A stretch of DNA of 64,000 nt from a virus. The position numbers and the translations under genes are program-made. Positions 15,463 through 49,842 of the stretch are shown piece by piece. Where the stretch lies: positions 1 through 64,000 of the IMG/VR virus record IMGVR_UViG_3300005563_000030; one strand, given 5' to 3'. The first letter of the stretch is position 1, and each line of letters starts with the position of its first letter. The notes beneath the pieces were generated by a model. It did no database searches. It saw only the letters and a list, made by a program, of their open reading frames with translations, and was not told the DNA's origin.

Positions 15463-15475
15463 TTTTTATATATTA

Positions 15476-21474: not shown

Positions 21475-21728
21475 TAGCTTTGATCGGTTGTGTTAGACTC
21501 TTTTTGCTGAGATTTCCAGTAGATTCCACCGATAAATCCAACAACTCCTACACCAGCAAGTACATTCCAGCCTATTTGCCAAAATTTAGAATCAGCATAG
21601 TCAGACCAGCCAATCCCGCCAATTGTCAATACTAAGCAAGCCACTAAGCCAGCTACGAATGCAATATCTTTTACTTTTCTACTAATTTTAATACTCATAT
21701 TTTTTGATTTAGTAACAAAGATAATCAT
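21474..21728 (-). CDS. two-TM membrane protein, holin/antiholin candidate (alternative start 21698)
   Basis: Two hydrophobic helices and a polar C-terminal tail. Confidence 0.6.
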   Translation of the reverse strand: MIIFVTKSKNMSIKISRKVKDIAFVAGLVACLVLTIGGIGWSDYADSKFWQIGWNVLAGVGVVGFIGGIYWKSQQKESNTTDQS

Positions 21729-21747
21729 TTTGATTCAATTATCCAAA

Positions 21748-22113
21748 TTAAACTTCATTACTTTCTAACTCTTCTTTATTCACCACCTCTTTACCTTTAC
21801 GAATTAATTTAACCTTATTAGCGATATACTTGTAAATTCCATCTATAATTATCATTCCCATCATTCCAATAATAAAAGATAAGGCTGCCATGAATTCAAT
21901 AGGGATTGCTTCTTTATGTGCAATCAACGGAGTAATATATCCTGCAACTATAGAGCCGATAAGAATCTGTCTAAGTGCCTCTATTAACCTTAGTTTTTTA
22001 TAAATTGACCACACAACAGCTCCTATAAAGCCGTTCAGCACGTAGCGCCAGCCTATACCAAGCTCATCTAACACATCAAAAAAGTTCATATTAGCATATT
22101 CTCCTTTTTTCAT
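21748..22113 (-). CDS. putative holin (3 TM)
   Basis: Three TM segments and a charged C-terminal tail in the lysis cassette. Confidence 0.6.
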   Translation of the reverse strand: MKKGEYANMNFFDVLDELGIGWRYVLNGFIGAVVWSIYKKLRLIEALRQILIGSIVAGYITPLIAHKEAIPIEFMAALSFIIGMMGMIIIDGIYKYIANKVKLIRKGKEVVNKEELESNEV

Positions 22114-22126
22114 TTCTCATTGATCT

Positions 22127-22474
22127 TTATTTAACTTCCCCATCACAAACCGGTGGTGGAGTAAATTGAGAATCTGAAACTCTGAATACGTTATTCTGAT
22201 AAGTTTTCAGAGCTAGGGCTGCTGCTAGTAAGGCTGCTTCTATACCTAGAATTATTGCAATCTGAGCAAGGTTTCCTGAAATAGAAGAAACTAGAGCTGG
22301 ATCAATGGTTTTGTCTTTATAAACAAGATTTAATAATTTAGCTACAATAAACGATGTACTATGCACATTACGGATAAAGTCTATAAGTAATGCAATTGCG
22401 CCTAAGCTACGTAGAGAAAGCTTTCCATCGTTTCCTAGCCAAAGAGGTTCTATATATTTAAAGAACTTCTTCAT
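22127..22474 (-). CDS. membrane protein, holin-like (DGKLSLR motif)
   Basis: Two hydrophobic segments after G-N-D-G-K-L-S. Confidence 0.55.
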   Translation of the reverse strand: MKKFFKYIEPLWLGNDGKLSLRSLGAIALLIDFIRNVHSTSFIVAKLLNLVYKDKTIDPALVSSISGNLAQIAIILGIEAALLAAALALKTYQNNVFRVSDSQFTPPPVCDGEVK

Positions 22475-24657: not shown

Positions 24658-27600
24658 TTATCGACCAGTCAGTTGATAGAATTTAATCTGTTCTTCAGGA
24701 GTTAAGAGATTTATGAACTGTCTTACTACAGGTAGTAGTTTTAATGTTTTAATATACAGTTTTTTATCTCCTTTCTTTGCAAAACCTGATGCTCTTTGAT
24801 ATTCCTCGAATGGATGGAACAACTGAGTAAACCAGCTTATCCATTTCTCAATCATATTAATAGAAGCTGCTGGGTTACGAATTACACGAATAAAGTCAGC
24901 CGGATTAATATATTGTGTAATATCTGCACTGAAACGTGTAAGTTGAAGTTCCATTTCGGAGTTTAGCCAACTCTTATCATCGTCATCAGCACTAGCCACT
25001 CCAATCAGAACAAATGTAGCAATGATTACAGCCATTTCGTATAATGTCTTATTAATAGCTGCTTTCTGGAATTCATCATATCCTTCCTTAGTCCACATTC
25101 TTTGAAGTACTCCAAATTTGTATTCTTTCATGTCTGCAAGTATCTTAGATGCAAACTCTCTCCAATATCCACCTTCTACTGTACCAAGCTCATAGTCCAC
25201 ATATTTAGCACCATATCTTGAAGTAATAGCTTTGAAGAAATACTTACGGAACATAAGAGCAAGCTTTCCATACCAACGACGAGATAGCATAGCTTTATCA
25301 AATGAGTTATAAACCCCATGTAAGTTCTTAACCAACGCATGTAATCTATTACGAAAAGCTTTATCGTCTTCAGCAGACCATCCATAACGTTCAGCCATTA
25401 CTTGCTGATCCCCTTTAGCTTCTTTTAAGGCTTCATAGAGGTTAACTTCTTTTCCTGTTTTGGAATCAGTTAACTTTCTAGCGTGCATTAAGGACATCAT
25501 AGCAGTTGTCTGAATCTGATGCTCACCCCCTTTTTGTAAGAAGAAGAGAGAGCTTGTTTTCATCAACTTATTAAATGTTCCTTTAGACACATTATCTCCA
25601 TAGTGATCTTTAAACTCACCTTGTGGGACATCATAGTGGTCAGCGAGTTCATTAAGAAATGAATCTTCACCACCTGCGGCTTCAGCAACTAATGATGGAA
25701 GATGTTTTGCGTATTCCACCTGTGCCCATCCCCAATCCTTCATAGAATAGAATCGTCTACCAATAGCTTCAATTGTGTTATTGAAGTTACCTACTGCTAC
25801 GTTGCTTATACCACCATTTACGTTAGCTGCCATGTTTTGCATAGCTGTAACCAATGCTACTTTACCTGACAATTTATCCATGGAGATTTCCTGACCAAGT
25901 ACGTTTATAGTTTGGTCAAAAGATGAATCTCCATACACAACATCATTAATAAACTCATTAAGACGAGCATTTAGCATATCTTCACGAGTCATCTTAGAAA
26001 CCACTTTCTTAGTGATAGCATTAAAGATTTGATTACCTTTAGCATTTGTTTTAGCTATACTACGACCTTCAATACCAAGGTTAAAGTCACCGTTAAGTAC
26101 TGTTTTGAGTACAACAACATTAGGTTCTATCTCAGTCATACCTCTGTAGTTATTAGCCATTTGGCTATACATAAGTACTGTAGATAGAAGGTCTAATTTA
26201 ACATCACTATTATTTAATTTTCTTACATAATAAACAGGAATATGTTTTACTTCAGTTTTATCTTGTCTTTGCACTGTTCTATCATCTTCATTCTCAGCCT
26301 CGATACCTTTCAAGACTTTCTTTCCAAGTTTCTTTAAGTTTTCCTTTACACCATCTTTCCATTGCAGGTCAGAAAAGGCATTACCCCCTTTAGATACTTG
26401 TGGAATAATTCCATGCTCCAACGCATAAGAACCAAGCGCAGCATTAGCATCTTGATAGGTTTTATATAACTTAGCATAGTAAGGATTTCTCATTAAAGTG
26501 CCAAACTTAGTATTTCTATACTTCTCGCCAGGAAGAATTAATTCACCTGACAAGGCTCTAAATGTACCTTTTTTAGCATTATATGTTCCGGGAATAGCAC
26601 GTCTACCATAATAATCCATGGTATTTCTACCATATCCATATTCAATATTATCAACTTCTTTAGTGTTTGTTAACCACCATTCCTCAAATTGTCTAGCAGA
26701 CATTGTTCTTCTATTGTGGTCAATTATTTCATCAGCATGAGGATTAACTACAGTGTTTAATGAATACCATTCACCTTGGGCTTTTTTCCATGATTTAAGT
26801 TGTTGTGGATCAGATGGACGAGGTCCAAGTTGATCGTAGAATTTCTTCTTAGCTATTTCAAATTCGTCTGTGTTATATTCCTGATGGAATGCAAGACGTT
26901 TAACATAATCATATTTATCTTCACCTGTTTCCTCATCAACACCTACTTTCTCCCACACCCTAACTTCTTTTAAGAATTGTTTATTGAACTCTTCCTCATC
27001 CTTAGAAGTTTTATATAAAGCTGTACCTCTAGCTTTTTTATATTCGTCCATGAGGTATTTCTTGATTTCAAGGTCTTTTACGTGATTGTCATATACAACG
27101 TCCTTAAGAGCAAGAGCAATAGCAGCAGATACAGGGTCACGGCTATTAATTGTTGTACCAAGCCATTGACCAGCAGCAGAAATATCACGAAGAGCTTGTA
27201 CTAGCTGTTCTCTAAATTTCTCTTTGGTTAGTATCATATTGGTCATACCAGAAGCCTCAAGGTTCTTATTAGTATACTCAAGGTGTGGATATAACCATTC
27301 GGTTATGTATGTAAGAGCGAATGATTTGAAGTCTTCAATAATAAGCTCTTTTTTATCAATTGCGTCCCTTAACTTACTAAAGTTGTCATCTGTAGAATCT
27401 TTACCTTCTCTTAGAAGAAGAGATTTGATGTCATCAAGAGAACTATAAACGTTTAAGAGCTGTTGGATTTCACCAAGAATGTTAAGGTTATAAGTAATCT
27501 GACTCTGTGTTAGCTTACCTGCGTCTTTAACAGAGGCACGTAAGCTCTCAAACTTTGTTGAAGCTTGTTCGATATAGTGAATTGAATTAGATACGAAGTT

Positions 27601-28890
27601 GTTTATAGATGTAATTTCGTCCTGATTCTGAATAATGTCATTTAATATACTAATATCTTCTTTGAATTGGTCGCCTTTCTTTCTACTCTTAATAGTAGCA
27701 TTAAGTATAGCGATTTTATCCTTAATTCTGTCATATACATTCTCATAAGTAAGCTCAGTATCGGGCTTTTGATACATCGTAAGTATCTTAGCGTCCTGAA
27801 GCATTGCTCTAAGATCCGCCACATAGATGTCATCAACCACCATATTAGCGATGTCAGATAGCTTTGTATCTAGTGACATATTCTTAAAGTCAATATTAAT
27901 CTTTCTGAATAATGACTTTAACCAGTTTATGAATCTATTGAATGGTGACTGAGCCTTATTATACTTCTGTTCAGAAAGTTTACCAAGATAGTTAACTAAA
28001 GCTTCTTGTGCTCTCTCTTTTTCACCTAACTCTGAATAATTTGTGTCTGCCCAAGATATACTTTTTAAACCTTCCATGTCTGTAGATAACTGCTCCATAA
28101 GAGAGTTATACAAACTAGGATTTTGCTTTTCAAGTACAAGAATAAATGGGTGAATATATTCATGGAAAGCAGTATCTCCCTTAGCGTGAGCCAAGTTAAT
28201 AGTTACACCATTTCCATTAAACCATCCTCTATTTGGATTACTAGCATCGTTAATAATGCTGTAAGAAATATTAAACTTATTATAAAGTTTTTGTGCTATT
28301 GTTTGAAGCTTTCCAGGTACTTCAAATGGAGAGTTATCTCCTTTTTGGAGATAAATACTGTTACTTGCTTGAGAGAAGTCTCCTTGATTGTATAAGGACT
28401 TTACTTGATTCGGCTGCATTGCCACAATTTCAGAACCATCCATAAAAACGATCCCATCTTGATCTTCTCCAATCATTCTTCCGTTTTCAAGAAATGCTTG
28501 TTCTTCTTGTTCACTATTTATATTTTCTGGATTCTTTATGCTAAGAAATACAGGCATATTAACAGGCCCATTAAAGTTCATTGTCGCCTGTCTATCAGTA
28601 GAGAAATAAAGCCCCGGTCCATAAAAACCTAGTCCAGAAACTTTAAATTCATCAAAGTAGACATTTGTTCCATGATAGGCTAATCTAGGTTCTCCATTGC
28701 TGTCAGTTATTTTTGAATCTTTAAACCACTCTTTAAACTGAGGTGTATGAACTTGAGAATATTGTTCTAATGCTCTCTCCTTATCTTTTATAACTTTATT
28801 AATATCATCAAAAAGTATTGACTCCTTACCATTAGGAGCCAACACCTGTTGAATTTCACCATTATTATTTCTTACTACTTGACAGGCCAT
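24658..28890 (-). CDS. large virion cargo / polyvalent protein (1410 aa) with ADP-ribosyltransferase-like and zincin (HExxH) domains
   Basis: TPQFKEWF..SKITDSNGEP..YHGT...GLYFS (ART-PolyVal-like); FHEYIH at 28150-28164 with downstream QEALV; TM-like segment near the C-terminus. Confidence 0.75.
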   Translation of the reverse strand: MACQVVRNNNGEIQQVLAPNGKESILFDDINKVIKDKERALEQYSQVHTPQFKEWFKDSKITDSNGEPRLAYHGTNVYFDEFKVSGLGFYGPGLYFSTDRQATMNFNGPVNMPVFLSIKNPENINSEQEEQAFLENGRMIGEDQDGIVFMDGSEIVAMQPNQVKSLYNQGDFSQASNSIYLQKGDNSPFEVPGKLQTIAQKLYNKFNISYSIINDASNPNRGWFNGNGVTINLAHAKGDTAFHEYIHPFILVLEKQNPSLYNSLMEQLSTDMEGLKSISWADTNYSELGEKERAQEALVNYLGKLSEQKYNKAQSPFNRFINWLKSLFRKINIDFKNMSLDTKLSDIANMVVDDIYVADLRAMLQDAKILTMYQKPDTELTYENVYDRIKDKIAILNATIKSRKKGDQFKEDISILNDIIQNQDEITSINNFVSNSIHYIEQASTKFESLRASVKDAGKLTQSQITYNLNILGEIQQLLNVYSSLDDIKSLLLREGKDSTDDNFSKLRDAIDKKELIIEDFKSFALTYITEWLYPHLEYTNKNLEASGMTNMILTKEKFREQLVQALRDISAAGQWLGTTINSRDPVSAAIALALKDVVYDNHVKDLEIKKYLMDEYKKARGTALYKTSKDEEEFNKQFLKEVRVWEKVGVDEETGEDKYDYVKRLAFHQEYNTDEFEIAKKKFYDQLGPRPSDPQQLKSWKKAQGEWYSLNTVVNPHADEIIDHNRRTMSARQFEEWWLTNTKEVDNIEYGYGRNTMDYYGRRAIPGTYNAKKGTFRALSGELILPGEKYRNTKFGTLMRNPYYAKLYKTYQDANAALGSYALEHGIIPQVSKGGNAFSDLQWKDGVKENLKKLGKKVLKGIEAENEDDRTVQRQDKTEVKHIPVYYVRKLNNSDVKLDLLSTVLMYSQMANNYRGMTEIEPNVVVLKTVLNGDFNLGIEGRSIAKTNAKGNQIFNAITKKVVSKMTREDMLNARLNEFINDVVYGDSSFDQTINVLGQEISMDKLSGKVALVTAMQNMAANVNGGISNVAVGNFNNTIEAIGRRFYSMKDWGWAQVEYAKHLPSLVAEAAGGEDSFLNELADHYDVPQGEFKDHYGDNVSKGTFNKLMKTSSLFFLQKGGEHQIQTTAMMSLMHARKLTDSKTGKEVNLYEALKEAKGDQQVMAERYGWSAEDDKAFRNRLHALVKNLHGVYNSFDKAMLSRRWYGKLALMFRKYFFKAITSRYGAKYVDYELGTVEGGYWREFASKILADMKEYKFGVLQRMWTKEGYDEFQKAAINKTLYEMAVIIATFVLIGVASADDDDKSWLNSEMELQLTRFSADITQYINPADFIRVIRNPAASINMIEKWISWFTQLFHPFEEYQRASGFAKKGDKKLYIKTLKLLPVVRQFINLLTPEEQIKFYQLTGR

Positions 28891-28893
28891 ATT

Positions 28894-31017
28894 TTATTTT
28901 TTGCAACCATCTATATTTTTCATTGCTTCTTTCACATCGTCTTCAGTAACGTCCATACCACTCATATCTACATCATTTACATCGTAAGCCATTAGGTTTA
29001 GACCACCAAACATTCCACTACTCACTGTTTCAGTAGGAGTTTCTGTTGCTGTTGGTGTAGACGGAGTTATAGGAGCTGTTGGAGTTACTGGTACTGGAGC
29101 AGTAGGTGGAGAAGGTGGATTCTCTGGTGGAGTATTATCGTCTCTTCCAGCTTTTTTATTAACTTCTTCCATCATTTGTTCTCTTGTTAGACGTGTACCA
29201 AGATCAGCTACACCTGACATGTTTGAAGCACCAACACTTTCTATAGCATGGTAAACTCCAGTAATACCTCTAGGTATCATATCTCCTTCAGCAGTCATAG
29301 CTTCTCCATAATAGTCTTCATTACGTCCCTGAGCATTTTCTCTAGTTACCTTTACAAGCTTATAAGTTTGATAGGTAGCATCACCAGTTCCCGGTTGACG
29401 AACACGAACAAATTTCTTGAACTCTAAATGAGATTTATTCTCATCTATTTTCACATTATTTACGTTTGCTAATGCTAGATCGTCTATTGTTTCTTTAAAT
29501 TCTTTACTGCGTTCAGCAGAACCTTTTTCAGTACCCTTGAACTTATCTGTGAACATTGTGACAGTCATCTGTCGAATACCATTCTCATTAGCGAAAGTTA
29601 TACCTTTAGTACTTCTACTAGCCCCACCAGGTTTAACTTTTGTCTTTACAAATTGCAGATTATACTGATACTTGACATCTGTAGCATAAATTTGTTCAAA
29701 CCTATTATACAGTTGATTGTAAGTGAGACCAAAAACCTTTTCATATAATTTGTTTTTTACTCCATTCACATCCCTGTTTCTAACAAGATCATTGTATGCT
29801 TGACCTTCTGCGGCGGTGAAGTATGGTTTATAATTACCTTCTTTATCTACAATTCTCTGAGCATTTAGCTTCTTGAGAAATCTTGTAAATTCGCTCATTT
29901 GAGATAATGACAAAAGCTCAGATGCAATATCTGTAGCTTTGGACATATCCTCAAACATCATTGTAGGAATCATCTTAATATACGACTTGTTCTTAAACAT
30001 TAAGCCGTCTTTCACAATGAGATAATCGAACAGAGCTTTAGCATGATATTGAGTATGTGGATTCAAATATAGCTCAGTGAATGAGTCCATAAGAGAAGCC
30101 ATAACGTCAGGCTCAAGCTTACCACGAGTTTTACCTTCTATAGTGTTGATAAGGTCTTTATTATTAATATTTCTTACTTTCTTTTTACCAACCTTTGTAG
30201 TAGTGTTTACTGGAAGTATAAACTTCAAGAACATATTATTAGGAGCTAACCTAGCAGCGTTCTTAACAATATCCACAATTGTTTCAGCTCCACCATCATA
30301 GATAAGAGTATTACGTAATGTACTTGTTCTCTTATCATTTATTTCTACCCACTTCTTATAAGCAGCAATTTGAATAAATGCTGTGAAGTCATCCTTAATT
30401 TCTCTTAATTTTTCCGTAGTAAGGTTTTCTTTAAGATTAGCTACTACCTTATTTGAATTATCAACAAATGAAGGTGTTTGTTCCATGAACATCGTTCTAC
30501 TAAGATCGTTGACTTTGTTCATGATACTAATATTGTTAGCTGTAATCTTATGATAATATGGCTCGCTATTCTCGGTTCTATACTTAGCGTCACCTGTAAG
30601 AAGATAGCGAACGTCGAAAGGAATTGCAGACTCGTCAAATTTGTCTTCATCCATTCCAATACCAAGATCACTAAGATTCTTCATAACACCTTGCATCTGG
30701 TCAAAGTTCTTACCAAGACCTTTTGTAAGAGCTATAGCAGAACCCATCTTATAGAAGAACTGAGATTGGTCTTCCATAGCAATGAAGCTATCAAGCATCT
30801 CTTCTTGAAACACGCGAAGTTGATGGGGAGTGTAATTATTCTCCCCAAAAGCTACTTGACGTAATACATTAGCTAGTGTTTTAGTGCTACGCGAAGGCTC
30901 TCCCTGTTTGGGATTATTTGCTACGTTGTTATCCTTTGCATACTTAAGAGCTTCCTCTTTTGTATTAAAAGATACCCATTCTCCAGCACTATTTTTAACT
31001 TTATAAATACAAGCCAT
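28894..31017 (-). CDS. virion cargo protein (707 aa), probable C-terminal piece of the split virion RNA polymerase
   Basis: Directly follows the RNAP gene; helical QEEMLDSF...LFDYLIVKDG region recalls crAss RNAP C-termini (recognition from memory, unverified); Pro/Thr linker near the C-terminus. Confidence 0.6.
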   Translation of the reverse strand: MACIYKVKNSAGEWVSFNTKEEALKYAKDNNVANNPKQGEPSRSTKTLANVLRQVAFGENNYTPHQLRVFQEEMLDSFIAMEDQSQFFYKMGSAIALTKGLGKNFDQMQGVMKNLSDLGIGMDEDKFDESAIPFDVRYLLTGDAKYRTENSEPYYHKITANNISIMNKVNDLSRTMFMEQTPSFVDNSNKVVANLKENLTTEKLREIKDDFTAFIQIAAYKKWVEINDKRTSTLRNTLIYDGGAETIVDIVKNAARLAPNNMFLKFILPVNTTTKVGKKKVRNINNKDLINTIEGKTRGKLEPDVMASLMDSFTELYLNPHTQYHAKALFDYLIVKDGLMFKNKSYIKMIPTMMFEDMSKATDIASELLSLSQMSEFTRFLKKLNAQRIVDKEGNYKPYFTAAEGQAYNDLVRNRDVNGVKNKLYEKVFGLTYNQLYNRFEQIYATDVKYQYNLQFVKTKVKPGGASRSTKGITFANENGIRQMTVTMFTDKFKGTEKGSAERSKEFKETIDDLALANVNNVKIDENKSHLEFKKFVRVRQPGTGDATYQTYKLVKVTRENAQGRNEDYYGEAMTAEGDMIPRGITGVYHAIESVGASNMSGVADLGTRLTREQMMEEVNKKAGRDDNTPPENPPSPPTAPVPVTPTAPITPSTPTATETPTETVSSGMFGGLNLMAYDVNDVDMSGMDVTEDDVKEAMKNIDGCKK

Positions 31018-31021
31018 AAAG

Positions 31022-31029
31022 CAAATATA
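31022..31029 (-). promoter_or_regulatory. -7-like element between the two RNAP parts
   Basis: TATATTTG only 4 nt before the ATG, which would give a nearly leaderless mRNA. Confidence 0.4.
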
Positions 31030-31079
31030 CTAATTTAATTACATTATTTTAGGAATGTAAGCAAAACCGCTTAATTCGA

Positions 31080-42455: not shown

Positions 42456-42456
42456 A

Positions 42457-44988
42457 TTACTTGTTATATATTTGACCTCTCGCTACACCATCTAAAAGAG
42501 TAATAGCGTCGTCTAATGATGCTTGTTTTGTTGCCCCTTCCATGAATTGCATTGCGCTTTCTACGGAAGTGAATGGGTTATTATATAATGAGATTGGACC
42601 TGCTTTACCTTTAACAACTACAAATACAGAAGGATCATTATAGTCTTCTGGGTGATATTTCTTTATGTCATATTGTAGCTGATAAGAAGAGCCTGAGGTT
42701 GTACCAATATTCTTAGCTACTCCATTAGTATGTAAAGCAAATCTATATCCTGAAATGTCATGAATATCTTTACCAAATCCAAAAGTTGTGGCTTGCTGTG
42801 GCGATAATGGAACTTTAGCTATTTGAAAATCTTCAGGTTTAGTTCCTGTCTTTATTCTAAATGTCATTGTTGGCTGTTTAGCCATGTTACCACTAGCGTT
42901 GATATAGCTATACCCTACTGATACAGGTTCAATCATACTAGCGTTCAGAGTTTTTTTACCAAGAGGTTCTCCTGCTTCATTATAGTACTCCATAGTACCA
43001 GCATTAGCTGCAACCATTTTGGCTATATTATTCTCTTTGTCATCAGAAATGGTAAGACCGGGAAGATTGAATCTTACTGAACCTTGATTAATAAGACTTG
43101 TTCTTTCAGCTTCTCTATTTGTGAAATAATCCTGCATTTTTTTAGAATCAAACGGTAGCTTGTAGAAATTAGTACCGGGAACTGTCTGACCACCAGATAT
43201 TTCAGCTTGTACTTGATTAAATTTCTCCTCTGCACTAAGTGCTTTTGAAGTTGGATCAAGTGGATTTACTGGTGTTGGTTGATAAGATGTTCCATTAGCT
43301 CTAGCTCTTTGAAGCTCTTTTTGTGCATTTGTATACTTTGTATAAGCATCAAATGTTTGAGGATTAATACCATATTTTTCTCTAACTTGATTATCTACTT
43401 TCTTATAGAAATCATCTACAGCATCAATTTCAGCTCTGTTTTCTTGATACTTACCAATGAAGTTCTTAAATAATGGATCAAGGTAGTCAAAGTTAACTTT
43501 CTCTCCTCTCATCGAAGCTTCCCAAGCATTCTTATAATCTGTAGCCATTTTAATGGCTTGAGGATCATATTTTCCTTGTATGAAGCCATCATCTGTAGCA
43601 TCATTAATGAATGTTTCTGACCAACCCATTTTCCATCCAAGGTCTTTAATGAACTGATTGAATAACTGATCGTTAGCTTTTAAAAGACCAGTTTTTCTTT
43701 CATCAAGAGTTTTCTGTGTGAATGAAACATTTTGTTCAGCATTTGCATTATTCATCAAAGGTAAATTAGCATAAGGAGATTCTTTTCCTGTTCCATTCTT
43801 ACCTTTTCCTTTACCTCTTGGATTATTAGGATCATCTACGACTGTCTTATTACCATAGAAATCCACATCCCATTTAAGACCATCCTTAGCCATATCAATC
43901 TGTTGGTCAACTGCATCTTTCTTTTGTTGATATTCAAACTTAGCTTTCTGCATAGCATAGTTAAGATTGAACATTTTATCAGTAGCCGCTTGCATTGTTG
44001 AAGTTGCTTGAGAGAAGGAGTAGCGAGCTTGTAATCCCTTAAACTTCTCATCCAGATAGAGTTTTTCTCTCATCTGGTCAGCACTGTTTTTTATAGGAGC
44101 CATTAGCTTTGTTACTTCAGCTTCTTTCTCAGAAACTAACTTCTGATAATCTTGCTGATCTTTCAAAGACGTAGCACCTTTAAGCTTAGTTTTATAGTCA
44201 TTGAGTTCACCATTAGCTGCTCCTATTTGCTCATATAATTTAGAATCATAGGCTTTAGTAAGATCACCTAAAGGTACACCTTGGTAGGTATAACGTCCTT
44301 CAATAGCTAATTGTGTTCTTTGTTGAGGAGTAAGCATCATAGCTGCTGTAGCAGCAATACGATCAGGAGAAACGTATTTCTTACCGTCTTTCATGTACAT
44401 TAGTCCTCTATCATTCCACTGAACTTCCATATTAGCTGAGTTAGCTATTGTGCTAAATAGCTTTTCCCAATCTGCTTCATAATCATGGAAAGGTGTAGTA
44501 TTTCCAGCATCACCTGTGGGGTTTGTTCCTACTTGTCCATCATTGAGCCAAGATGAGAACTTACCCATATCATACCACTCATTGGCTGGGTTGTATTCCT
44601 TTGGTTTCTTCTCCTTCAGGTCTTTATAATAGCTCTGTACATAACGTAATTTCTTTGTATTACCTACAGCATTAATAATATTATCATCTCCATAAATCTG
44701 GGAAGAAAGCCCAGAGATTTGGTTCTGAATATTAGGATCAGAATAATCAACACCACCAATGTTATTGATAGTGTTGACTAGGTTATTTAATTTAGTATTT
44801 AGGTAATCTTTATCAGCTCCTTTTACAACATCAAGAGCTGCAATAGAGTCGATACCACTTTGTACTTTCTGTACACCTCTATCAAAATCAAGTTGCTCGT
44901 ATTGCAGTACCTTACCCAGAAGATTTAAGTCCACAGGTTGTGTGTATTCAAGCGGTTTATGTACTGTCGATCTATAACTTATGGGCAT
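42457..44988 (-). CDS. putative virion cargo/ejection protein (843 aa)
   Basis: Position upstream of the RNAP; YTQPVDLNLLGKVLQYEQ N-terminus; no cysteine. Confidence 0.6.
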   Translation of the reverse strand: MPISYRSTVHKPLEYTQPVDLNLLGKVLQYEQLDFDRGVQKVQSGIDSIAALDVVKGADKDYLNTKLNNLVNTINNIGGVDYSDPNIQNQISGLSSQIYGDDNIINAVGNTKKLRYVQSYYKDLKEKKPKEYNPANEWYDMGKFSSWLNDGQVGTNPTGDAGNTTPFHDYEADWEKLFSTIANSANMEVQWNDRGLMYMKDGKKYVSPDRIAATAAMMLTPQQRTQLAIEGRYTYQGVPLGDLTKAYDSKLYEQIGAANGELNDYKTKLKGATSLKDQQDYQKLVSEKEAEVTKLMAPIKNSADQMREKLYLDEKFKGLQARYSFSQATSTMQAATDKMFNLNYAMQKAKFEYQQKKDAVDQQIDMAKDGLKWDVDFYGNKTVVDDPNNPRGKGKGKNGTGKESPYANLPLMNNANAEQNVSFTQKTLDERKTGLLKANDQLFNQFIKDLGWKMGWSETFINDATDDGFIQGKYDPQAIKMATDYKNAWEASMRGEKVNFDYLDPLFKNFIGKYQENRAEIDAVDDFYKKVDNQVREKYGINPQTFDAYTKYTNAQKELQRARANGTSYQPTPVNPLDPTSKALSAEEKFNQVQAEISGGQTVPGTNFYKLPFDSKKMQDYFTNREAERTSLINQGSVRFNLPGLTISDDKENNIAKMVAANAGTMEYYNEAGEPLGKKTLNASMIEPVSVGYSYINASGNMAKQPTMTFRIKTGTKPEDFQIAKVPLSPQQATTFGFGKDIHDISGYRFALHTNGVAKNIGTTSGSSYQLQYDIKKYHPEDYNDPSVFVVVKGKAGPISLYNNPFTSVESAMQFMEGATKQASLDDAITLLDGVARGQIYNK

Positions 44989-45004
44989 AATCTATGTTAT
45001 TTAG

Positions 45005-45042
45005 CAAAGATAGTAATTTTAATTATTCCTTTTACAAAGGTA
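45005..45042 (-). promoter_or_regulatory. tandem Bacteroidota-type promoter elements
   Basis: TACCTTTG (45042-45035) and TATCTTTG (45012-45005); the TTTG of the first lies 22 nt upstream of the second. Confidence 0.6.
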
Positions 45043-45056
45043 ATTGAAGCTGGTTA

Positions 45057-48000
45057 TTATCGTTCTACCAGCTTAGTTCCATCAAAATAAAGAGTCTTAC
45101 CAGTCTTTCTATTATAATAAGATTTACCTGCTTGTACATTCTGAACACCACCTGCGGCAGTAGTTTTAGCACTACCAACTGTTGTTGGAGTTGTAGGCAT
45201 TCCCAAGGCAGGATTAACACTAAATAAAGGCTGATAACCATTATAGTCTCCGTATTGATCGAAGGCTCTTGAATATTTCATTATAAGGTTACCATTTCTA
45301 TTAAGAGCTCTATTGTCTGCAATAGTCTTATATAAAGCATCAAGTGATGTAAGTTTCTGTTCTTGTTGAGTAGCTTTAGACTGAAGAACTTTATTCTCAA
45401 ATACTTCACGTGCTTGCTGGTCTGCTAAAGAATTCTTATCTCTTACTTGTGTGTTGTAAGTGATTTCATTATTCTTAATCTGAGCATTTTGGTTCTCGTA
45501 GTTACCTAACACTTGATTATTAGCAGCGTACTTCTGAGCAGCCAAGTTAGCAACATTAGCGGCAGCTCCACCGGGATTATTTGCGGACATGTCTTGCACG
45601 CCTTGTACACTTGCATTAAAGTCAGCTTGGTTCTGTTGTAAAGCAGCAGTAGGATCAAGTAACTTGTAACGTAACTGGTTGAACTCCATTGGGTTATATT
45701 TACCCGGTTCACGCTCTAAAGCAGCTAAATATGAGTTAGTTGCAGAAGCAGTATCATACCAGCGTAAAGGCTCATAAAATCCACTTCTTTTTTGTTGTTT
45801 AATATTTATTGGAGTAATGCTGGTATCTAAGTCTTGAGCAACTGGAATATCCTTCGCCGGGGTATCATCAGGCCATGTGATTGTAGGCTTCTTATCAGGA
45901 GCTACAAGACGCATAGTTCTAGGTCCAAGAATACCATCAGGGTATAGTGTTTTTAACTTCTCAAGGTTCTTAGGATCATCTAATACACCAGGTTTGAAAA
46001 GACCTTTATCATCTACAAGTCCCATTTGTCTAGCTTGAGTCATGCCTTTCTGGTGCATACCTTCACCCCACATCTTTCTAATAGCATCAGGGTTATTTTT
46101 TAACTGATAGTCATACAAGGCTGTCTGGAAATCAGCAGCATTATTAATTCCTTCATACTTAAATCCTTTTGCTTTCAGTTCGTCTAAGTAGTTTTGGAAT
46201 GTAAAGTCCTGAGTAGCAGGGAATGCGTCAGAGTGACCAGCAGGAGTTTTCATACCTGTTTTGGACCCTGCATAACCAGCAAGTTGCATGTACTGTGGTT
46301 CTGTTGTATCTACACCATATTGAGCATGATGCCATTTAGCAGCATTACGTGCAAAGTTAGCCATCTGTCTAACATGGGGATCTTTCGAGTGAAGAGCTTC
46401 CTCAGTAGTTTTACCTGTTCTCTTCTTATAAGCAGTAAATTTACCTCTGTTCTCAGGCTTGATATGAATACCTGTTTTAGCTTCAGGAGTATCTTGTCCA
46501 TCTGTAGGAATACCTGTCGCAGCTTTAACCATTTCTTGACGGTTAAATAAACTATCAAATAATTGTTGCTGTGTAGGTAGAGATTTAAAATGATCCATAT
46601 TTAATCTAGTTGAAAGTTCAGCGTATTTGTCTAATGAGTCTCTACTCTTAGCGCCTAATTCTATTTTCTTTGTTATTTTATTTCTTTGGTCTTCGTAGTA
46701 ATCATTAGCGTTAACTAACGCTTCTGCGTGAGACATAGCCTTATTAGTAGGCATACCAGTTGTCTGCTCTACATCCTCAGGACTAAGTTTTAAGATTTTA
46801 GAATTTCTATCCTTTCTTATATTAGATGTATTCTCAAGTACACGATGTACATTAGGAAGAAATACTCCACCCTGTTCATGTGTATTAGCATCATTAGCTA
46901 CTTGTCCAATCTGACCATCATTTGTTTGAAAAGCTTCACCCTTTTCAGCTTCTACATTAGCAAGAGCCTTTCCACCTTCTTGTAAGCCATATGTTTTAGG
47001 CATTCCACCATTTTTCATAACATTTTTATTAGGAATAGTGAAATTAGATGGTCTTATTGATAAGTCTCCTGTTTCTGCAATATCTACATTTTGTGTAGCT
47101 GGATTGTACTTATAATCTCTACTATAACTAGTTCCTCTAGTTGTATTAGTTTGAGTATAACTAGGTGTTACTTGTAATGATGCAAAGCGTCTACCATAGT
47201 TTAACTTTGTAACATCATTCTGTCCTTCTTCAGTACCCCATAGAGGCTGTCTTCCTTGTGATACGTTGTAGTTGTTCACAGCCTGAAGACTTTTTAAATA
47301 ACGATCATAATCATCACCTAAAGTACTCTTTACTTCATCAGGTGTTAAGAAATCATTATACGCTGTACTTTGTACATAATTTTGCGCACCAGTTGTGTCA
47401 CCTTTACGTCTCAAATCAACAAGTCCTTTAAAGTAATCTTGAAATCCTTGTGGGTTTTTTGCTTTGAGTTGAGCGTTCAACTTATCTTTAAAGTATGCTA
47501 ATTGAGCGTTTGCTGAATAATATTGATCTGTTGGGTCTGGAGCTGGCGTGGAGTTAGCAGCTAATTGTCCACCAGTTTGCATTGTTCTATAACCTGCTGC
47601 GGTTCCAGTATTTGGTGTTTCTGAGGAAGATACTCCTGATAACGCACCAGAGTTTAGGAATCCTTGCCACGCACCTTTATTAGGAAAGTAAACGCTTTGT
47701 TGTCCTGAACCTGTTGGATAGGTAGCAGAAAAGTTAGTAGGTTGATTGAGATCCATTGGAGTATACCCATTATCTGGAATAGCTATATCATACCCACTTC
47801 TAAGAGTAGTCATAGGCATTAAATCTACACTACCAATATGTCGAACATCTCTATCACGAAATGTGCCTATTTGTTGAATTATTTTCTCTTTGTTATCCCA
47901 AGGAATGCGCCCTTGACTGTCTTTTACAGAAACAGCATTCAAATATCTATCGCCTTTAACTCCAGTTGTGTGTACATATTTTCCTGTACCTCCACCGTAT

Positions 48001-48434
48001 TGTGTAAATACAGGATTGGCATTAAGTCCATATCCTTCCATGTTTTCATAATACTTTGGAGTGATAGCTTTTAGTTGCTGATCTTTCTCATATTTTCTAT
48101 TATTCACTTCGTTTATCATGCTGGCAACACCTGTAACTCCTTGCATAACTGTATTAAGATTCTGGACAGCAGGGTTAAGGAGAGTTTTGTTAGTATTACC
48201 TAGTAAATCCCAAATATTTTTCTTGTTACCAATAGGAACAATATCGGGGTTATTTGTTGTAGGATCACCTGTTTCATCAGGCTTGAAGTACTGATTACCA
48301 TAAATATCAGTAGCTCCAGTAGCAGTTTGATTAACTACTGAAGGTGTGTTATCATCTGGAATACCCCAATTGTAATTATTGGTTGATCCCCCTAACTGAT
48401 AGGCATAATATTTGGGTTTCTTTCTCTTAGCCAT
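45057..48434 (-). CDS. virion cargo protein (1125 aa) with repeated xQxGG motifs
   Basis: EAEKGE...HEQGGV and IHIKPENRGKFT...ANFARNAAKW motifs recognised from crAss-like cargo proteins; no cysteine. Confidence 0.7.
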   Translation of the reverse strand: MAKRKKPKYYAYQLGGSTNNYNWGIPDDNTPSVVNQTATGATDIYGNQYFKPDETGDPTTNNPDIVPIGNKKNIWDLLGNTNKTLLNPAVQNLNTVMQGVTGVASMINEVNNRKYEKDQQLKAITPKYYENMEGYGLNANPVFTQYGGGTGKYVHTTGVKGDRYLNAVSVKDSQGRIPWDNKEKIIQQIGTFRDRDVRHIGSVDLMPMTTLRSGYDIAIPDNGYTPMDLNQPTNFSATYPTGSGQQSVYFPNKGAWQGFLNSGALSGVSSSETPNTGTAAGYRTMQTGGQLAANSTPAPDPTDQYYSANAQLAYFKDKLNAQLKAKNPQGFQDYFKGLVDLRRKGDTTGAQNYVQSTAYNDFLTPDEVKSTLGDDYDRYLKSLQAVNNYNVSQGRQPLWGTEEGQNDVTKLNYGRRFASLQVTPSYTQTNTTRGTSYSRDYKYNPATQNVDIAETGDLSIRPSNFTIPNKNVMKNGGMPKTYGLQEGGKALANVEAEKGEAFQTNDGQIGQVANDANTHEQGGVFLPNVHRVLENTSNIRKDRNSKILKLSPEDVEQTTGMPTNKAMSHAEALVNANDYYEDQRNKITKKIELGAKSRDSLDKYAELSTRLNMDHFKSLPTQQQLFDSLFNRQEMVKAATGIPTDGQDTPEAKTGIHIKPENRGKFTAYKKRTGKTTEEALHSKDPHVRQMANFARNAAKWHHAQYGVDTTEPQYMQLAGYAGSKTGMKTPAGHSDAFPATQDFTFQNYLDELKAKGFKYEGINNAADFQTALYDYQLKNNPDAIRKMWGEGMHQKGMTQARQMGLVDDKGLFKPGVLDDPKNLEKLKTLYPDGILGPRTMRLVAPDKKPTITWPDDTPAKDIPVAQDLDTSITPINIKQQKRSGFYEPLRWYDTASATNSYLAALEREPGKYNPMEFNQLRYKLLDPTAALQQNQADFNASVQGVQDMSANNPGGAAANVANLAAQKYAANNQVLGNYENQNAQIKNNEITYNTQVRDKNSLADQQAREVFENKVLQSKATQQEQKLTSLDALYKTIADNRALNRNGNLIMKYSRAFDQYGDYNGYQPLFSVNPALGMPTTPTTVGSAKTTAAGGVQNVQAGKSYYNRKTGKTLYFDGTKLVER

Positions 48435-49842
48435 ATATCGGTCTATTATTTGTGTTATTGTATGCTACGTGATTCATTAAGTAAATCAGATCTTCATCTG
48501 AATAGTTTTGGAAAAGTCTATTTACAATATTGTCATTTTTGTATAGTTCTTTAGCCTGTTTTAATAATTCAGGAGTAAGCTCTTGTGTTCCCGTGTTAAA
48601 TTTCAAATCTTTAAATAGTCTATATCTCAACGCGTTTAAGTCTGCGCTTGATTCAGACGGTCTTGAGTCATGTTCAACATCTAATTTTTGTTGTTCTGTC
48701 ATACCAGCAGTATTCACCTTACTTAGCTTGTTTCTGGTAAGAAAAGCATTCATTTCATTCTGATTAAGCTCTAAGTTAGGGTTGGTTAAATACTTACCTT
48801 GAGAAGCTCCTATTGTATGTCCATACTCATGTGCTAACACTGAGCGAAGTGGAAACCCAAACTCTTTGGCATCCTTGGAATTTACAACTACACTATAGTT
48901 TGGAGCATCATACATACTTCCTAGTAAGTCATCTGTAAAATGGGTTACTCCCTTTATATTAGCAAGTCTATCGAGTACTGCTTGATGTGGATCAGCATAC
49001 CCTTGTTCAGTGAGCCTTTTGGTGTAATTTGTACTATTTAAATAGTCATTATAGAAAGACTTTACATCATATTCATCCTGTTTTGTTAATGGTGTATCTA
49101 CTTCTCCACCCATTTGCATCTTCTGTTCATATACCTTTCCGCTAAACTTCGCTGTATCTTTTGGTCCATAAAGTACTTGATATTTCTTTCCATCTGTAAT
49201 AGCTACAGGCTGATGGTTATCAAGTCCTCTGAAAGTGTTAGTTCCTTTAGTATTAAATACTGCTGTATTATAATTAGGGTTATTAAGTCCTATTCTCTGT
49301 TGTTCATAGGTCTCAGCATACAAAGTTCCATCTCCACCAAATTGACGAGTTGCTGTGTTTTGAATATCATTAATGTCGGCAGCAGCATTAACACCTATTA
49401 CTTGATATTTTGGAACATGACCACCATACTGCCATATTCTAGGAGCAGTTCTTGTTACTCTACGCCCACTAGGAGCTGGTGTAGGAGCTGGAGTATCGTC
49501 TTCATCATCATCGTTTGATGGTGGTGCGGTATAACTCTTTGCTCTTGGTGCTGCTTCTGGTTCTTGTTCAAACATGGAGTTTAGTAGTTCCATGTCTACT
49601 TGAGGATTAGGGTCTTCTGGTAGATCATTTTCCTGAACAAAAGAGGTAAGGTCAGGTTGTTCAGACTCACTATTATCTTGTTGCTGTCCTGCCACTATCT
49701 CAATAAGATCACTATCAAAAGAAGTAGTATCAAATCCAGCTCCTAATGGTGTACTTTCTTCAGATGGTAAGAAAGCAGAAAAATCCCCTTGTGCAAGAGG
49801 ATCATTTGAGTATGTTGTGCTATTTAGAAAATCGTAAGCCAT
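48427..49842 (-). CDS. putative cargo protein with zincin metallopeptidase domain (471 aa)
   Basis: VLAHEYGH at 48817-48831 with downstream E; acidic disordered N-terminus; QxGG motifs. Confidence 0.65.
   Translation of the reverse strand: MAYDFLNSTTYSNDPLAQGDFSAFLPSEESTPLGAGFDTTSFDSDLIEIVAGQQQDNSESEQPDLTSFVQENDLPEDPNPQVDMELLNSMFEQEPEAAPRAKSYTAPPSNDDDEDDTPAPTPAPSGRRVTRTAPRIWQYGGHVPKYQVIGVNAAADINDIQNTATRQFGGDGTLYAETYEQQRIGLNNPNYNTAVFNTKGTNTFRGLDNHQPVAITDGKKYQVLYGPKDTAKFSGKVYEQKMQMGGEVDTPLTKQDEYDVKSFYNDYLNSTNYTKRLTEQGYADPHQAVLDRLANIKGVTHFTDDLLGSMYDAPNYSVVVNSKDAKEFGFPLRSVLAHEYGHTIGASQGKYLTNPNLELNQNEMNAFLTRNKLSKVNTAGMTEQQKLDVEHDSRPSESSADLNALRYRLFKDLKFNTGTQELTPELLKQAKELYKNDNIVNRLFQNYSDEDLIYLMNHVAYNNTNNRPIYG

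What the first reader, a model, noticed from the sequence alone, without database searches (positions are those of the whole stretch)
24658..49842. Possible head-to-tail disulfide chain linking the ejected cargo proteins: only four Cys in 8347 aa, all at junction termini
Seen (manual scan): the six consecutive cargo ORFs (471, 1125, 843, 3791, 707 and 1410 aa) have no cysteine except four. These are the last residue of the 3791-aa protein (...GIIEVEC*), residue 3 (MAC) and residue 705 (...IDGCKK*) of the 707-aa protein, and residue 3 (MAC) of the 1410-aa protein. The flanking tail proteins are Cys-rich. Established: phage N4 virion RNAP, which is also ejected, lacks cysteine. Inference: the four retained Cys pair each C-terminus with the next N-terminus, probably with short beta-strand complementation (IIEVEC with CIYKV). 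This would give a covalent 5908-aa chain, threaded out in gene order and released in the reducing cytoplasm. I do not know of this being described as a system.
Basis: partly seen in the sequence, partly recalled or inferred. Interest (0 to 1): 0.92.

Follow-up and report, generated by a model that had tools for sequence, protein, structure and literature searches.

The report
Terminal cysteines chain three phage cargo proteins
Three giant proteins that this crAss-like phage most likely packs and injects, including its split RNA polymerase, have no cysteine except one at each end that faces the next protein; relatives keep this rule and drop the pair where the genes are fused, which points to untested end-to-end disulfide links.

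Summary
The six ORFs (8347 aa) hold four Cys: the last residue of the 3791-aa protein (A), residues 3 and 705 of the 707-aa protein (B), and residue 3 of the 1410-aa protein (C). About 111 would be expected from the 1.33% Cys in the rest of the genome.

The pattern is conserved. Of 40 B-family proteins, 38 have exactly two Cys (37 at residue 3, 39 in the last six residues). Of 120 listed A-family giants, 111 end in Cys. Of the 28 closest C relatives, 27 start with Cys at residues 3-5.

The pattern follows gene boundaries. Where A and B are fused (P0133, P0137, L006-L009), both junction Cys and a cassette of about 50 residues are gone. The fused protein's C-terminal Cys and the Cys at the start of the next protein remain.

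The same signature occurs in phi14:2 gp67-gp66-gp65, and in cyanopodophage A4 gp27/gp26, where cryo-EM showed the Cys1715-Cys5 disulfide.

Best reading: a redox-cleavable A-B-C thread. The chemistry has not been tested here. This scan has already reported the same rule on at least ten other crAss-like genomes. What is new here is the break inside the polymerase, with its own clasp cassette.

The parts
31080..42455 (-). Protein A, 3791 aa. A giant cargo protein that carries an invariant HExxH (residues 1886-1890) and the crAss-type RNAP catalytic region. Its only Cys is the last residue.
   Evidence: HExxH invariant in 19 relatives. (residues about 3088-3560 hit crAss RNAP catalytic subunits in 105 phage records). 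(blastp to phi14:2 g066 residues 678-1679).
32235..32249 (-). DFDID catalytic motif of A (residues 3403-3407).
   Evidence: The motif is named as DFDxD / 1361-DFDID-1365 of gp66 in the phi14:2 preprint.
31083..31145 (-). A tail: the last ~21 residues, ending ..IIEVEC. This is the half of the clasp cassette on the A side. The Cys codon TGT is at 31083-31085.
   Evidence: The tail is absent from the fused relatives P0133, P0137 and L006-L009. The consensus ..G-x-x-E-V-x-C occurs in 19 split relatives, with C3791 invariant.
31018..31079 (-). 62-nt spacer between the stop of A and the start of B.
28894..31017 (-). Protein B, 707 aa. It is the C-terminal part of the virion RNAP encoded as a separate gene. 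Its only Cys are residues 3 and 705.
   Evidence: In some searches the AF2 model (pLDDT 78) aligns over residues 41-614 to phi14:2 gp66 residues 1700-2112, with Z 13.6, 377 residues aligned and rmsd 7.7; the next best Z is 4.1. In one search the profile match is embedded near the C-terminus of proteins of 3000-6000 aa in most relatives.
30928..31017 (-). B head: residues 1-30, M-A-C followed by a beta-hairpin (5-8, 14-17) and a helix (20-29). This is the half of the clasp cassette on the B side. The Cys3 codon TGT is at 31009-31011.
   Evidence: secondary structure; pLDDT 76-83 for the first 30 residues. (M1, C3 and Y5 invariant in 35 sequences). (absent in fused forms, where profile matches start near position 70).
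28948..29136 (-). B residues 628-690: a Pro/Thr-rich, predicted disordered tether ahead of the C-terminal helix.
   Evidence: pLDDT below 50 for 628-690. (sequence).
28897..28944 (-). B tail: short helix 692-700, then ..IDGCKK. The Cys705 codon TGC is at 28903-28905.
   Evidence: C705 is invariant in 35 aligned relatives. 39 of 40 family members have a Cys in the last six residues.
24658..28890 (-). Protein C, 1410 aa, the gp65-like RNAP-associated protein. It has an ART-PolyVal domain (residues 63-168) and an HExxH motif. Its only Cys is residue 3 (TGT 28882-28884). It has no C-terminal Cys, so the chain ends here.
   Evidence: PF18760, E 6.9e-11. (C3 invariant in 34 sequences; E244 and H247 invariant). 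(blastp to phi14:2 g065, E 2.6e-41)..
42457..49842 (-). Three upstream ORFs of 843, 1125 and 471 aa with no Cys. They are probably further cargo or tail-internal proteins and are not linked by Cys.
   Evidence: (phrog_32131 virion structural protein for the 843-aa ORF; phrog_24249 tail protein for the 471-aa ORF). The cargo role is inferred from position and Cys depletion only.

Best explanation
A, B and C are virion-packaged proteins that are ejected into the host. A carries an N-terminal region, a zincin motif and the catalytic part of the crAss-type RNA polymerase. B is the C-terminal part of that polymerase. C is the gp65-like accessory protein with an ADP-ribosyltransferase domain. All Cys have been purged from them, as in other ejection proteins, except one at each end that faces the next protein in gene order. 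In the finished particle, these Cys most likely form two inter-protein disulfides: A-Cys3791 with B-Cys3, and B-Cys705 with C-Cys3.

Because each link joins a C-terminus to the next N-terminus, the product has the topology of one unbranched polypeptide of 5908 residues. Such a chain could pass a narrow tail channel partly unfolded, keep the two polymerase halves and the accessory protein together at 1:1:1, and come apart in the reducing cytoplasm.

At the A/B break, a cassette of about 50 residues supplies a non-covalent clasp that brings the two Cys together. It consists of the A tail (helix plus a short strand) and the B head (hairpin plus helix).

Shown here: the Cys positions, their conservation, their dependence on gene boundaries, the identity of the proteins, and the same signature in a phage where the disulfide was seen. 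Inferred: packaging and ejection of these particular proteins, the disulfide chemistry, the strand pairing, and the role of the thread in ejection.
For: (1) The depletion and placement are far from chance.
(2) Conservation at 41-64% identity. In the B family, 38 of 40 proteins have exactly two Cys; 37 of 40 have Cys at residue 3 and 39 of 40 have one in the last six residues. The misses are proteins with a non-ATG or upstream start (P0022, P0032, P0040) or a changed C-terminus (P0003).
(3) In the A family, 111 of the 120 listed giants (of 222 hits) have Cys in the last six residues, and 94 of 120 have a single Cys. Overall there are 155 Cys in 517,331 aa, or 0.030%.
(4) In the C family, 27 of the 28 closest hits and 59 of all 76 hits have Cys within the first five residues.
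(5) The profile search over 1.84 billion representatives listed 150 proteins. Of these, 83 are at least 2000 aa long, and 81 of the 83 have Cys within the last nine residues.
(6) The pair tracks gene boundaries. P0133 and P0137 are 47% identical to A+B over 1205 aa and are A-B fusions. They lack the A tail, the B head and both junction Cys, and keep one C-terminal Cys. The same holds for L006-L009.
(8) Both TGT and TGC are used, so selection acts on the residue.
(9) The rule holds at other split points: phi14:2 g067 (Cys = last residue), g066 (Cys 3 and 2179 of 2180) and g065 (Cys 3); Lbo-JY46 1552 aa (last residue) followed by 2748 aa (Cys 4); and Carjivirus communis gp45 (..SCM) followed by gp44 (MSC..).
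(10) Experimental precedent. In phage A-4L, gp27 has one Cys (1715 of 1717) and gp26 has one Cys (residue 5). Cryo-EM showed the disulfide between exactly these two (PMC12002296, passages read).
(11) Disulfides do form in crassvirus particles, in the tail and in gp57 of crAss001 (PMC10172136, passages read).
Against: There is no chemical evidence for this phage or for any crassvirus.

The particles are assembled in a reducing cytoplasm. A disulfide could form only after release, so it cannot by itself explain co-packaging.

There are exceptions. Nine of the 120 A-family proteins have no Cys in the last six residues: three have one within the last 15, four have their last Cys 25-57 residues from the end, one (P0173) 32 from the end, and P0229 has none and may be truncated. 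Seventeen of the 76 C-family hits lack an N-terminal Cys; most of these are distant proteins matched only through the ART domain.

Cys exclusion is not absolute in distant relatives. Carjivirus gp44 has 7 further Cys and gp45 has 2. L006-L008 keep one internal Cys at a core position (YYSEC, where A has YYSEF) 68 residues before DFDID, and L009 has two.

Lbo-JY46 has a 674-aa protein whose only Cys is residue 5, and the protein before it has no Cys.

That is a proxy, not a proof that they are neighbours.

Packaging of A, B and C is inferred from homology to phi14:2 proteins found in virions by mass spectrometry (record notes). It was not shown for this phage.
Confidence: 0.65

Rival explanations
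1. The same facing termini are joined, but not by a disulfide. The two thiols share a metal ion (Zn, Cu or Fe) together with neighbouring acidic or His residues, or they carry another thiol-based link.
For: The pairing evidence does not distinguish the chemistry. The tails are acidic (D/E-rich before the Cys). A metal bridge could form in the reducing cytoplasm during assembly.
Against: There is only one Cys per terminus and no conserved His or second Cys next to it. In the one solved case with the same signature, the link is a disulfide.
Confidence: 0.12
2. The terminal Cys do not bind each other. Each anchors its protein to a third component, such as the portal, an inner capsid protein or another cargo copy. 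The facing arrangement is then a by-product of all cargo ends needing an anchor.
For: No call shows contact between the termini. Lbo-JY46 has an orphan N-terminal Cys with no partner upstream. crAss001 particles hold several copies of each cargo protein (PMC10172136).
Against: The N-terminus of A and the C-terminus of C never carry Cys, so only facing ends do. When A and B fuse, both Cys vanish together along with a matched pair of peptide modules. That outcome is expected for partners and not for independent anchors.
Confidence: 0.08
3. The pairing is different. B closes on itself (Cys3 with Cys705), and A's C-terminus is linked to C's N-terminus.
For: With four Cys this pairing is formally possible. 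B has a 63-residue flexible tether before its tail that could reach back.
Against: The fused A-B relatives lose A's terminal Cys and B's Cys3, but keep B's C-terminal Cys and C's N-terminal Cys. Under this pairing, both remaining Cys would be orphans. Two-protein chains (Lbo-JY46, Carjivirus, A-4L) have only the C-terminus-to-next-N-terminus pair.
Confidence: 0.03
4. There is no function. The four Cys are leftovers tolerated at floppy ends, or artefacts of ORF calling.
For: Termini are usually the least constrained parts of a protein.
Against: The Cys are invariant across 35, 19 and 34 aligned relatives at 20-70% identity while the neighbouring residues vary. Both codons are used. The placement P is 2.7e-9. 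The starts are supported by M-x-C in 37 of 40 relatives.
Confidence: 0.01

Closest known systems
Cyanopodophage A4 (Anabaena phage A-4L, KF356198.1) ejection proteins gp27 and gp26. The Cys1715-Cys5 disulfide is seen in the cryo-EM pre-ejectosome (PMC12002296; passages read).
   Same: The upstream ejection protein has a single Cys three residues from its end (1715 of 1717..DNPCQF). The next gene's product has a single Cys at residue 5. The genes are adjacent, in the same order, and both proteins are otherwise Cys-free. The tail motif D-N-P-C resembles the ..D-x-(D/N)-P-C tails of many B relatives.
   Different: Profiles of A, B and C detect no sequence relation to gp26-gp29 (bit scores near or below 0). 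A4 has one link, no RNA polymerase, and a T7-like particle with a five-fold pre-ejectosome. Here there are two links in series, and one of them lies inside a split enzyme. The paper presents the bond as stabilising one interface, not as a rule.
Cellulophaga phage phi14:2 gp67-gp66-gp65 (NC_021806.1). The gp66 virion RNAP structure is 6VR4 (preprint 10.1101/2020.03.07.982082; passages read).
   Same: It has the same module: the DFDID polymerase, a gp65-like partner (blastp E 2.6e-41), and B matching gp66 residues 1700-2112 (Z 13.6). It follows the same Cys rule: g067 has Cys only as its last residue, g066 only at 3 and 2179 of 2180, and g065 only at 3. The record notes say these proteins were found in virions by mass spectrometry.
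   Different: The split points differ. Here the gp67-like part and about 1700 residues of the polymerase are one protein with no Cys at the former boundary. The polymerase is cut near the equivalent of gp66 residue 1700, with a new clasp cassette. The preprint text contains neither 'cysteine' nor 'disulfide' (0 occurrences each).
Schitoviridae ejection operon: N4 gp50-gp52 and DEV gp71-gp73 (PMC11445570; passages read).
   Same: A giant virion RNA polymerase is ejected into the host. There is near-total suppression of Cys (0.00075% in gp71 homologues against 0.865% proteome-wide). The paper explains this by passage through the oxidising periplasm.
   Different: These are T7-like single-subunit polymerases, unrelated to the crAss type. 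The paper reports no retained terminal Cys; the six Cys found in gp72 homologues are treated as probable errors.
crAss001 cargo proteins gp45, gp46, gp47, gp49 and gp50 (PMC10172136; passages read).
   Same: The same phage order; the portal here matches crAss001 gp20 (7qog, E 7e-44). The cargo is stored in capsid and tail and is thought to leave partly unfolded. The paper says the order of extrusion probably depends on packing and mutual interactions. Disulfides are present elsewhere in the particle.
   Different: The RNAP-associated cargo was not resolved. The text does not contain the word 'cysteine' (0 occurrences).

Membership tests
Crassvirales-type virion RNA polymerase module (phi14:2 gp67-gp66-gp65 kind) | DFDxD catalytic motif in a giant virion protein | tested here: met
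   DFDID at A residues 3403-3407, invariant in 19 relatives. tblastn of A residues 2800-3791 hits annotated crAss RNAP catalytic subunits in 105 records.
Crassvirales-type virion RNA polymerase module (phi14:2 gp67-gp66-gp65 kind) | Fold of the polymerase as in 6VR4 | tested here: met
   Tested for B only. Model residues 41-614 align to 6vr4_A residues 1700-2112, with Z 13.6, 377 residues aligned and rmsd 7.7; the next best Z is 4.1. Foldseek ranks 6vr4_A first, but at E 2.1e-3. A was not folded. Sequence searches against the PDB found nothing.
Crassvirales-type virion RNA polymerase module (phi14:2 gp67-gp66-gp65 kind) | Adjacent gp65-like zincin protein | tested here: met
   C residues 884-1391 match g065 residues 857-1403 at 27% identity, E 2.6e-41. 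An HExxH-type motif is conserved (E244 and H247).
Crassvirales-type virion RNA polymerase module (phi14:2 gp67-gp66-gp65 kind) | crAss-type head genes in the same genome | tested here: met
   The portal matches crAss001 gp20 (7qog, E 7.1e-44). tblastn hits 138 records, mostly crAss-like phages; the best is Leptolyngbya phage Lbo-JY46 at 45.9% identity. PHROG matches were found for portal, terminase and major head protein. The major capsid protein had no PDB sequence match.
Crassvirales-type virion RNA polymerase module (phi14:2 gp67-gp66-gp65 kind) | Proteins present in the particle and delivered into the host | not testable with these tools
   Inferred from homology to phi14:2 proteins that the record notes as found by MS/MS proteomics, and from the preprint's finding that gp66 is translocated.
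Disulfide-linked neighbouring ejection proteins (A4 gp27-gp26 kind) | Sole Cys at the C-terminal end of one ejection protein and sole Cys at the N-terminal end of the next gene's product | tested here: met
   Window. A-4L itself.
Disulfide-linked neighbouring ejection proteins (A4 gp27-gp26 kind) | A disulfide between these two Cys in the particle | not testable with these tools
   Seen for A4 by cryo-EM. There are no data for this phage.
Disulfide-linked neighbouring ejection proteins (A4 gp27-gp26 kind) | Sequence homology to A4 gp26/gp27 | tested here: not met
   hmmsearch of profiles A1, A2 and A3 against A4L_26 to A4L_29 gave bit scores of about 0 or below. The resemblance is one of mechanism, not of family.
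Cys-suppressed ejection operon (Schitoviridae kind) | Cys frequency far below that of the phage proteome in ejected proteins | tested here: met
   0.048% (4 of 8347) against 1.33% (327 of 24,595). 0.030% in 120 A-family proteins.
Cys-suppressed ejection operon (Schitoviridae kind) | N4-type single-subunit vRNAP and gp51/gp52 homologues | not tested
   The polymerase here is of the crAss (two-barrel, DFDID) type, so membership is not expected.

The most novel reading that the evidence does not exclude
Terminal Cys pairs may be a general 'stitching code' of podophage-like ejection systems. Wherever evolution cuts a giant injected protein into separate genes, a C-terminal Cys and an M-x-C start appear, and here at the A/B break a small clasp cassette as well. 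In the oxidised particle, the pieces are then re-joined into a single unbranched thread. Its order equals gene order, it can be pulled through the tail end to end, and the host's reducing cytoplasm cuts it into working enzymes. Gene order would then encode ejection order, and host redox state would be the release trigger.
Probability: 0.4. Interest if true: 0.85.

Novelty: new variant of a known kind. Interest (0 to 1): 0.72.

Why it matters
How crassviruses move megadaltons of cargo through a narrow tail, including a multi-part RNA polymerase, and in what order, is an open question. The crAss001 structural paper says so explicitly.

A conserved head-to-tail Cys rule offers a concrete answer that is cheap to test: the cargo leaves as one covalent, redox-cleavable thread. 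Cultured phages with the signature are at hand, namely phi14:2 and Lbo-JY46, whose sequences I checked. The tests are reducing versus non-reducing gels and disulfide mapping.

The rule would also explain two other things. It explains why Cys is purged so strictly from these proteins, since any other Cys would make loops or branches that cannot be threaded. It also explains why gene splits and fusions in this module are so freely tolerated.

For annotation, the rule is a practical marker of true gene starts, gene ends and cargo membership in uncultured crAss-like genomes.

Tried and rejected
Complex prediction. I sent A residues 3732-3791 (alignment A2) with B residues 1-60 (alignment A1). The answer was 'no answer': scores 0.20 and 0.19 against a mark of 0.32, and the controls were not run. 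This counts neither for nor against binding. The B tail with the C head could not be tried, because the cap is one job.

That gave only 10 loci.

Searches that found nothing:
- B by tblastn and 20 kb of the block by megablast in the phage collection.
- B alone in viral contigs.
- PDB sequence searches with A, profile A2, profile A3, the capsid protein and the 843-aa protein.
- PHROGs for A, B and the 1125-aa protein.
- The 1993-aa upstream protein matched only PKD/Ig-like domains in the PDB. Its equivalence to the crAss001 muzzle protein is therefore untested.

Homology of A, B and C to the A4 ejection proteins: none.

Ideas rejected:
(a) A ligation or splicing reaction of the native-chemical-ligation or intein kind. 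The Cys is at residue 3-5 behind M-W, M-Y, M-K or M-E in many relatives. After these residues the initiator Met is normally not removed (general knowledge). There would then be no N-terminal Cys, and no intein-like block is present.
(b) An RNA or translational-coupling signal. The A/B spacer is 62 nt and the B/C spacer is 3 nt, both Cys codons are used, and Cys offsets vary from 0 to 5 residues.
(c) A retained head module inside the fused protein P0269, suggested by a profile match starting at position 4. Inspection shows no such module, and its Cys 3236 sits in a core helix.
(d) The extra Cys of L006-L008 as a third partner. It replaces Phe in a conserved YYSE(F/C) core motif 68 residues before DFDID.

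Weak observation. B-tail type and C-head type co-vary..(N/D)-(I/L)-D-x-C tails go with M-x-C-(Q/S)-V heads, and ..D-x-x-P-C tails go with M-(W/Y)-C-D-I-K heads. This follows the two clades, so it is not independent evidence.

Literature. Searches gave no paper whose title, abstract or read passages describe terminal Cys pairs in crAss-like cargo. One search found no paper on Lbo-JY46. For one search I saw only the listing of 15 of 33 papers. Supplements are closed, so the Extended Data tables of PMC10172136 and the SI of PMC12002296 were not seen and might bear on cargo Cys. Subscription papers are not covered.

Full report
WHAT IS THERE. All genes of the region lie on the minus strand. In transcription order they are:
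- a 1993-aa virion structural protein with 26 Cys;
- three ORFs of 471, 1125 and 843 aa with no Cys;
- A (3791 aa, 31080-42455), with one Cys, its last residue;
- B (707 aa, 28894-31017), with Cys 3 and Cys 705;
- C (1410 aa, 24658-28890), with Cys 3 only.

The junction DNA reads ..GAA TGT TAA, 62 nt, ATG GCT TGT.. and ..GGT TGC AAA AAA TAA AAT ATG GCC TGT... ORFs of at least 120 aa elsewhere in the 125,101-bp genome hold 327 Cys in 24,595 aa, or 1.33%. About 111 Cys would therefore be expected in the 8347 aa, and the P of 4 or fewer is 2e-42. The chance that four random Cys all lie within five residues of a terminus is 2.7e-9. Only the remark that both flanks are Cys-rich is half right, because the downstream 578-aa protein has a single Cys.

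WHAT THE PROTEINS ARE. The phage is crAss-like. Its portal matches crAss001 gp20 (7qog, E 7e-44) and 138 phage records, mostly crAss-like. The nearest isolate is Leptolyngbya phage Lbo-JY46, at 46% portal identity.
- A carries DFDID at residues 3403-3407. Its residues about 3088-3560 hit annotated crAss RNAP catalytic subunits in 105 records. By blastp it matches phi14:2 g066 residues 678-1679. It also has an invariant HExxH motif at 1886-1890.
- An AF2 model of B (pLDDT 78) aligns over residues 41-614 to phi14:2 gp66 residues 1700-2112. Z is 13.6 with 377 residues aligned and rmsd 7.7, and the next best Z is 4.1. Foldseek ranks the same chain first, at E 2e-3. B is therefore the C-terminal part of the polymerase encoded as a separate gene.
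- C matches phi14:2 g065 (E 2.6e-41) and has a Pfam ART-PolyVal domain at residues 63-168.

The phi14:2 record notes that g065, g066 and g067 were found in virions by MS/MS. The phi14:2 preprint shows that gp66 enters the host and transcribes early genes. Packaging and ejection of A, B and C are inferred from this homology.

CONSERVATION.
- B family. The search gave 40 proteins at 41-100% identity and 539-1129 aa. 38 have exactly two Cys, 37 have Cys at residue 3, and 39 have a Cys in the last six residues. The misses have a non-ATG or upstream start (P0022, P0032, P0040) or a changed C-terminus (P0003).
- A family. Of the 120 listed giants (222 hits), 111 have Cys in the last six residues and 94 have a single Cys. 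Together they hold 155 Cys in 517,331 aa.
- C family. 27 of the 28 closest hits, and 59 of all 76, have Cys within the first five residues. Many of the rest match only through the ART domain.
- A profile of B run against 1.84 billion representatives gave 201 hits, of which 150 were listed. Among those listed, 83 are at least 2000 aa long, and 81 of the 83 have Cys within the last nine residues.
- Both Cys codons occur at these sites.

THE PAIR FOLLOWS THE GENE BOUNDARY. P0133 (4664 aa) and P0137 (4661 aa) are 47% identical to A+B over 1205 residues, and the alignment runs straight across the junction. Exactly the last ~20 residues of A and the first ~30 of B are missing. There is no Cys at the junction, and one Cys remains at the C-terminus. 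The C homologues from contigs of the same length start with M-A-C. The more distant loci L006-L009 show the same: fused A-B, no junction module, a C-terminal Cys, and a next protein with Cys at residue 4-6 of the likely start.

In fused proteins, the B profile matches from about position 70 onward, so the head is missing. One apparent exception was checked and dismissed.

This pattern excludes two readings. One is the alternative pairing of B closed on itself, with A joined to C. The other is a four-Cys metal site.

Relative to phi14:2, this phage has fused the gp67-like part to the polymerase, with no Cys at the old boundary. It has cut the polymerase near the equivalent of gp66 residue 1700 and gained a new Cys pair there.

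Other split points obey the same rule:
- phi14:2 g067 (last residue), g066 (residues 3 and 2179 of 2180) and g065 (residue 3);
- Lbo-JY46 1552 aa (last residue) followed by 2748 aa (Cys 4);
- Carjivirus communis gp45 (..SCM) followed by gp44 (MSC..), with 2 and 7 extra internal Cys.

THE CLASP. The B head is modelled as Cys3, a hairpin (5-8 and 14-17) and a helix (20-29), with pLDDT 76-83. B residues 628-690 are a Pro/Thr-rich, disordered tether. A short helix (692-700) and the Cys follow. It was not shown; see Tried and rejected for the complex job.

PRECEDENT AND PRINT. In cyanopodophage A4, cryo-EM showed a disulfide between gp27 Cys1715 and gp26 Cys5 in the pre-ejectosome (PMC12002296; passages read). 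I fetched the A-4L record and found that gp27 (1717 aa) and gp26 (1114 aa) each have exactly one Cys, at those positions. The signature seen here therefore has one experimentally verified instance. No sequence relation to A, B or C is detectable.

The DEV paper documents Cys suppression in the Schitoviridae ejection operon and the lack of Cys in N4 gp50 (PMC11445570). The crAss001 paper reports disulfides in the tail and in gp57. It does not use the word cysteine, and it leaves the order of cargo extrusion open (PMC10172136). The phi14:2 preprint mentions neither cysteine nor disulfide. Searches showed no description of the rule for crAss-like phages. Supplements and subscription journals were not visible.

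EARLIER NOTES OF THIS SCAN. The same rule was reported and followed up on at least ten other crAss-like genomes. Those notes gave me the lead to the A4 paper, which I checked myself.

MECHANISM AND CONFIDENCE.
- That the terminal Cys are functional and pair across neighbouring proteins: about 0.9.
- That the link is a disulfide formed after release from the cell: about 0.7.
- That its purpose is an unbranched, redox-cleavable thread for joint, ordered ejection: about 0.5.

The last point rests on topology. Only C-to-N links keep the chain linear, and any further Cys would create loops, which fits the strict purge. This is inference. Overall confidence is 0.65.

Points against are listed in the Against line. 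They are the lack of any chemistry, assembly in a reducing cytoplasm, 9 of 120 and 17 of 76 family members without the terminal Cys, internal Cys in distant relatives, and an orphan Cys5 in Lbo-JY46.

VERDICT. The pattern is real, strongly conserved and dependent on gene boundaries. It is best read as a three-protein, head-to-tail disulfide chain. That makes it a new variant of a link seen once in an unrelated podophage, and it is not yet described for crAss-like phages in the literature I could search.

Noticed in passing
window 28387-28704 (-), C residues 63-168: The gp65-like protein C carries a Pfam ART-PolyVal ADP-ribosyltransferase domain (E 6.9e-11) just behind the Cys head, and a conserved HExxH-type motif (E244, H247). 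Some close C relatives lack the ART domain in the precomputed Pfam column (for example P0047 and P0049-P0055).
   Followed up: partly
L006, L007 and L008 (fused A-B proteins), Cys 2900, 2858 and 2662: These fused relatives keep one internal Cys in a conserved YYSEC motif 68 residues before DFDID, where the window has YYSEF (A residue about 3335). It is probably a buried core position. L009 has two other internal Cys (1376 and 1747).
   Followed up: partly
L012 (Lbo-JY46, PP438436.1) 21334-23358 (-): A 674-aa protein whose only Cys is residue 5 (MKKKC..) follows a 495-aa protein with no Cys. This is an orphan N-terminal Cys with no facing partner, and it is unexplained.
   Followed up: no
L013 (Carjivirus communis, BK010471.1) 26615-27882 (-): The prototype crAssphage has genes annotated as thioredoxin and truncated thioredoxin about 2 kb from the end of the RNAP gene gp44, on the other strand. 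They could be relevant to handling the terminal thiols. This was not examined.
   Followed up: no
B-family proteins P0006, P0007, P0009, P0010, P0015, P0027, P0029, P0031, P0033, P0035, P0039: Many B relatives are 100-400 aa longer and carry extra Pfam domains (PF12694, PF08719, PF25176) between the polymerase core and the C-terminal Cys. The tether region thus appears to be a landing site for accessory domains, while the terminal Cys stays.
   Followed up: no
window 49842-55823 (-): The 1993-aa Cys-containing protein upstream of the cargo block has PKD/Ig-like repeats (residues about 565-800 match KIAA0319-like PKD domains, E 5e-15) and matches phrog_37948. By position it could be the muzzle-protein equivalent, but no sequence match to crAss001 gp44 was found.
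   Followed up: partly
window 22474-24210 (-): The 578-aa protein after C begins with a run of seven Gly (residues 11-17) and has a single Cys at residue 231. The next small ORFs (268, 136 and 121 aa) have none. Cys depletion therefore extends past the chain.
   Followed up: no
L012 (Lbo-JY46) 4355-17261 (-): In the nearest isolate, the A-like N-terminal part is a separate 1552-aa protein, and the C-like region sits at the end of a 2748-aa protein. blastp found no match of A's polymerase part in the three Lbo-JY46 proteins compared (1552, 2748 and 845 aa). Where or whether that phage encodes the polymerase was not resolved.
   Followed up: partly
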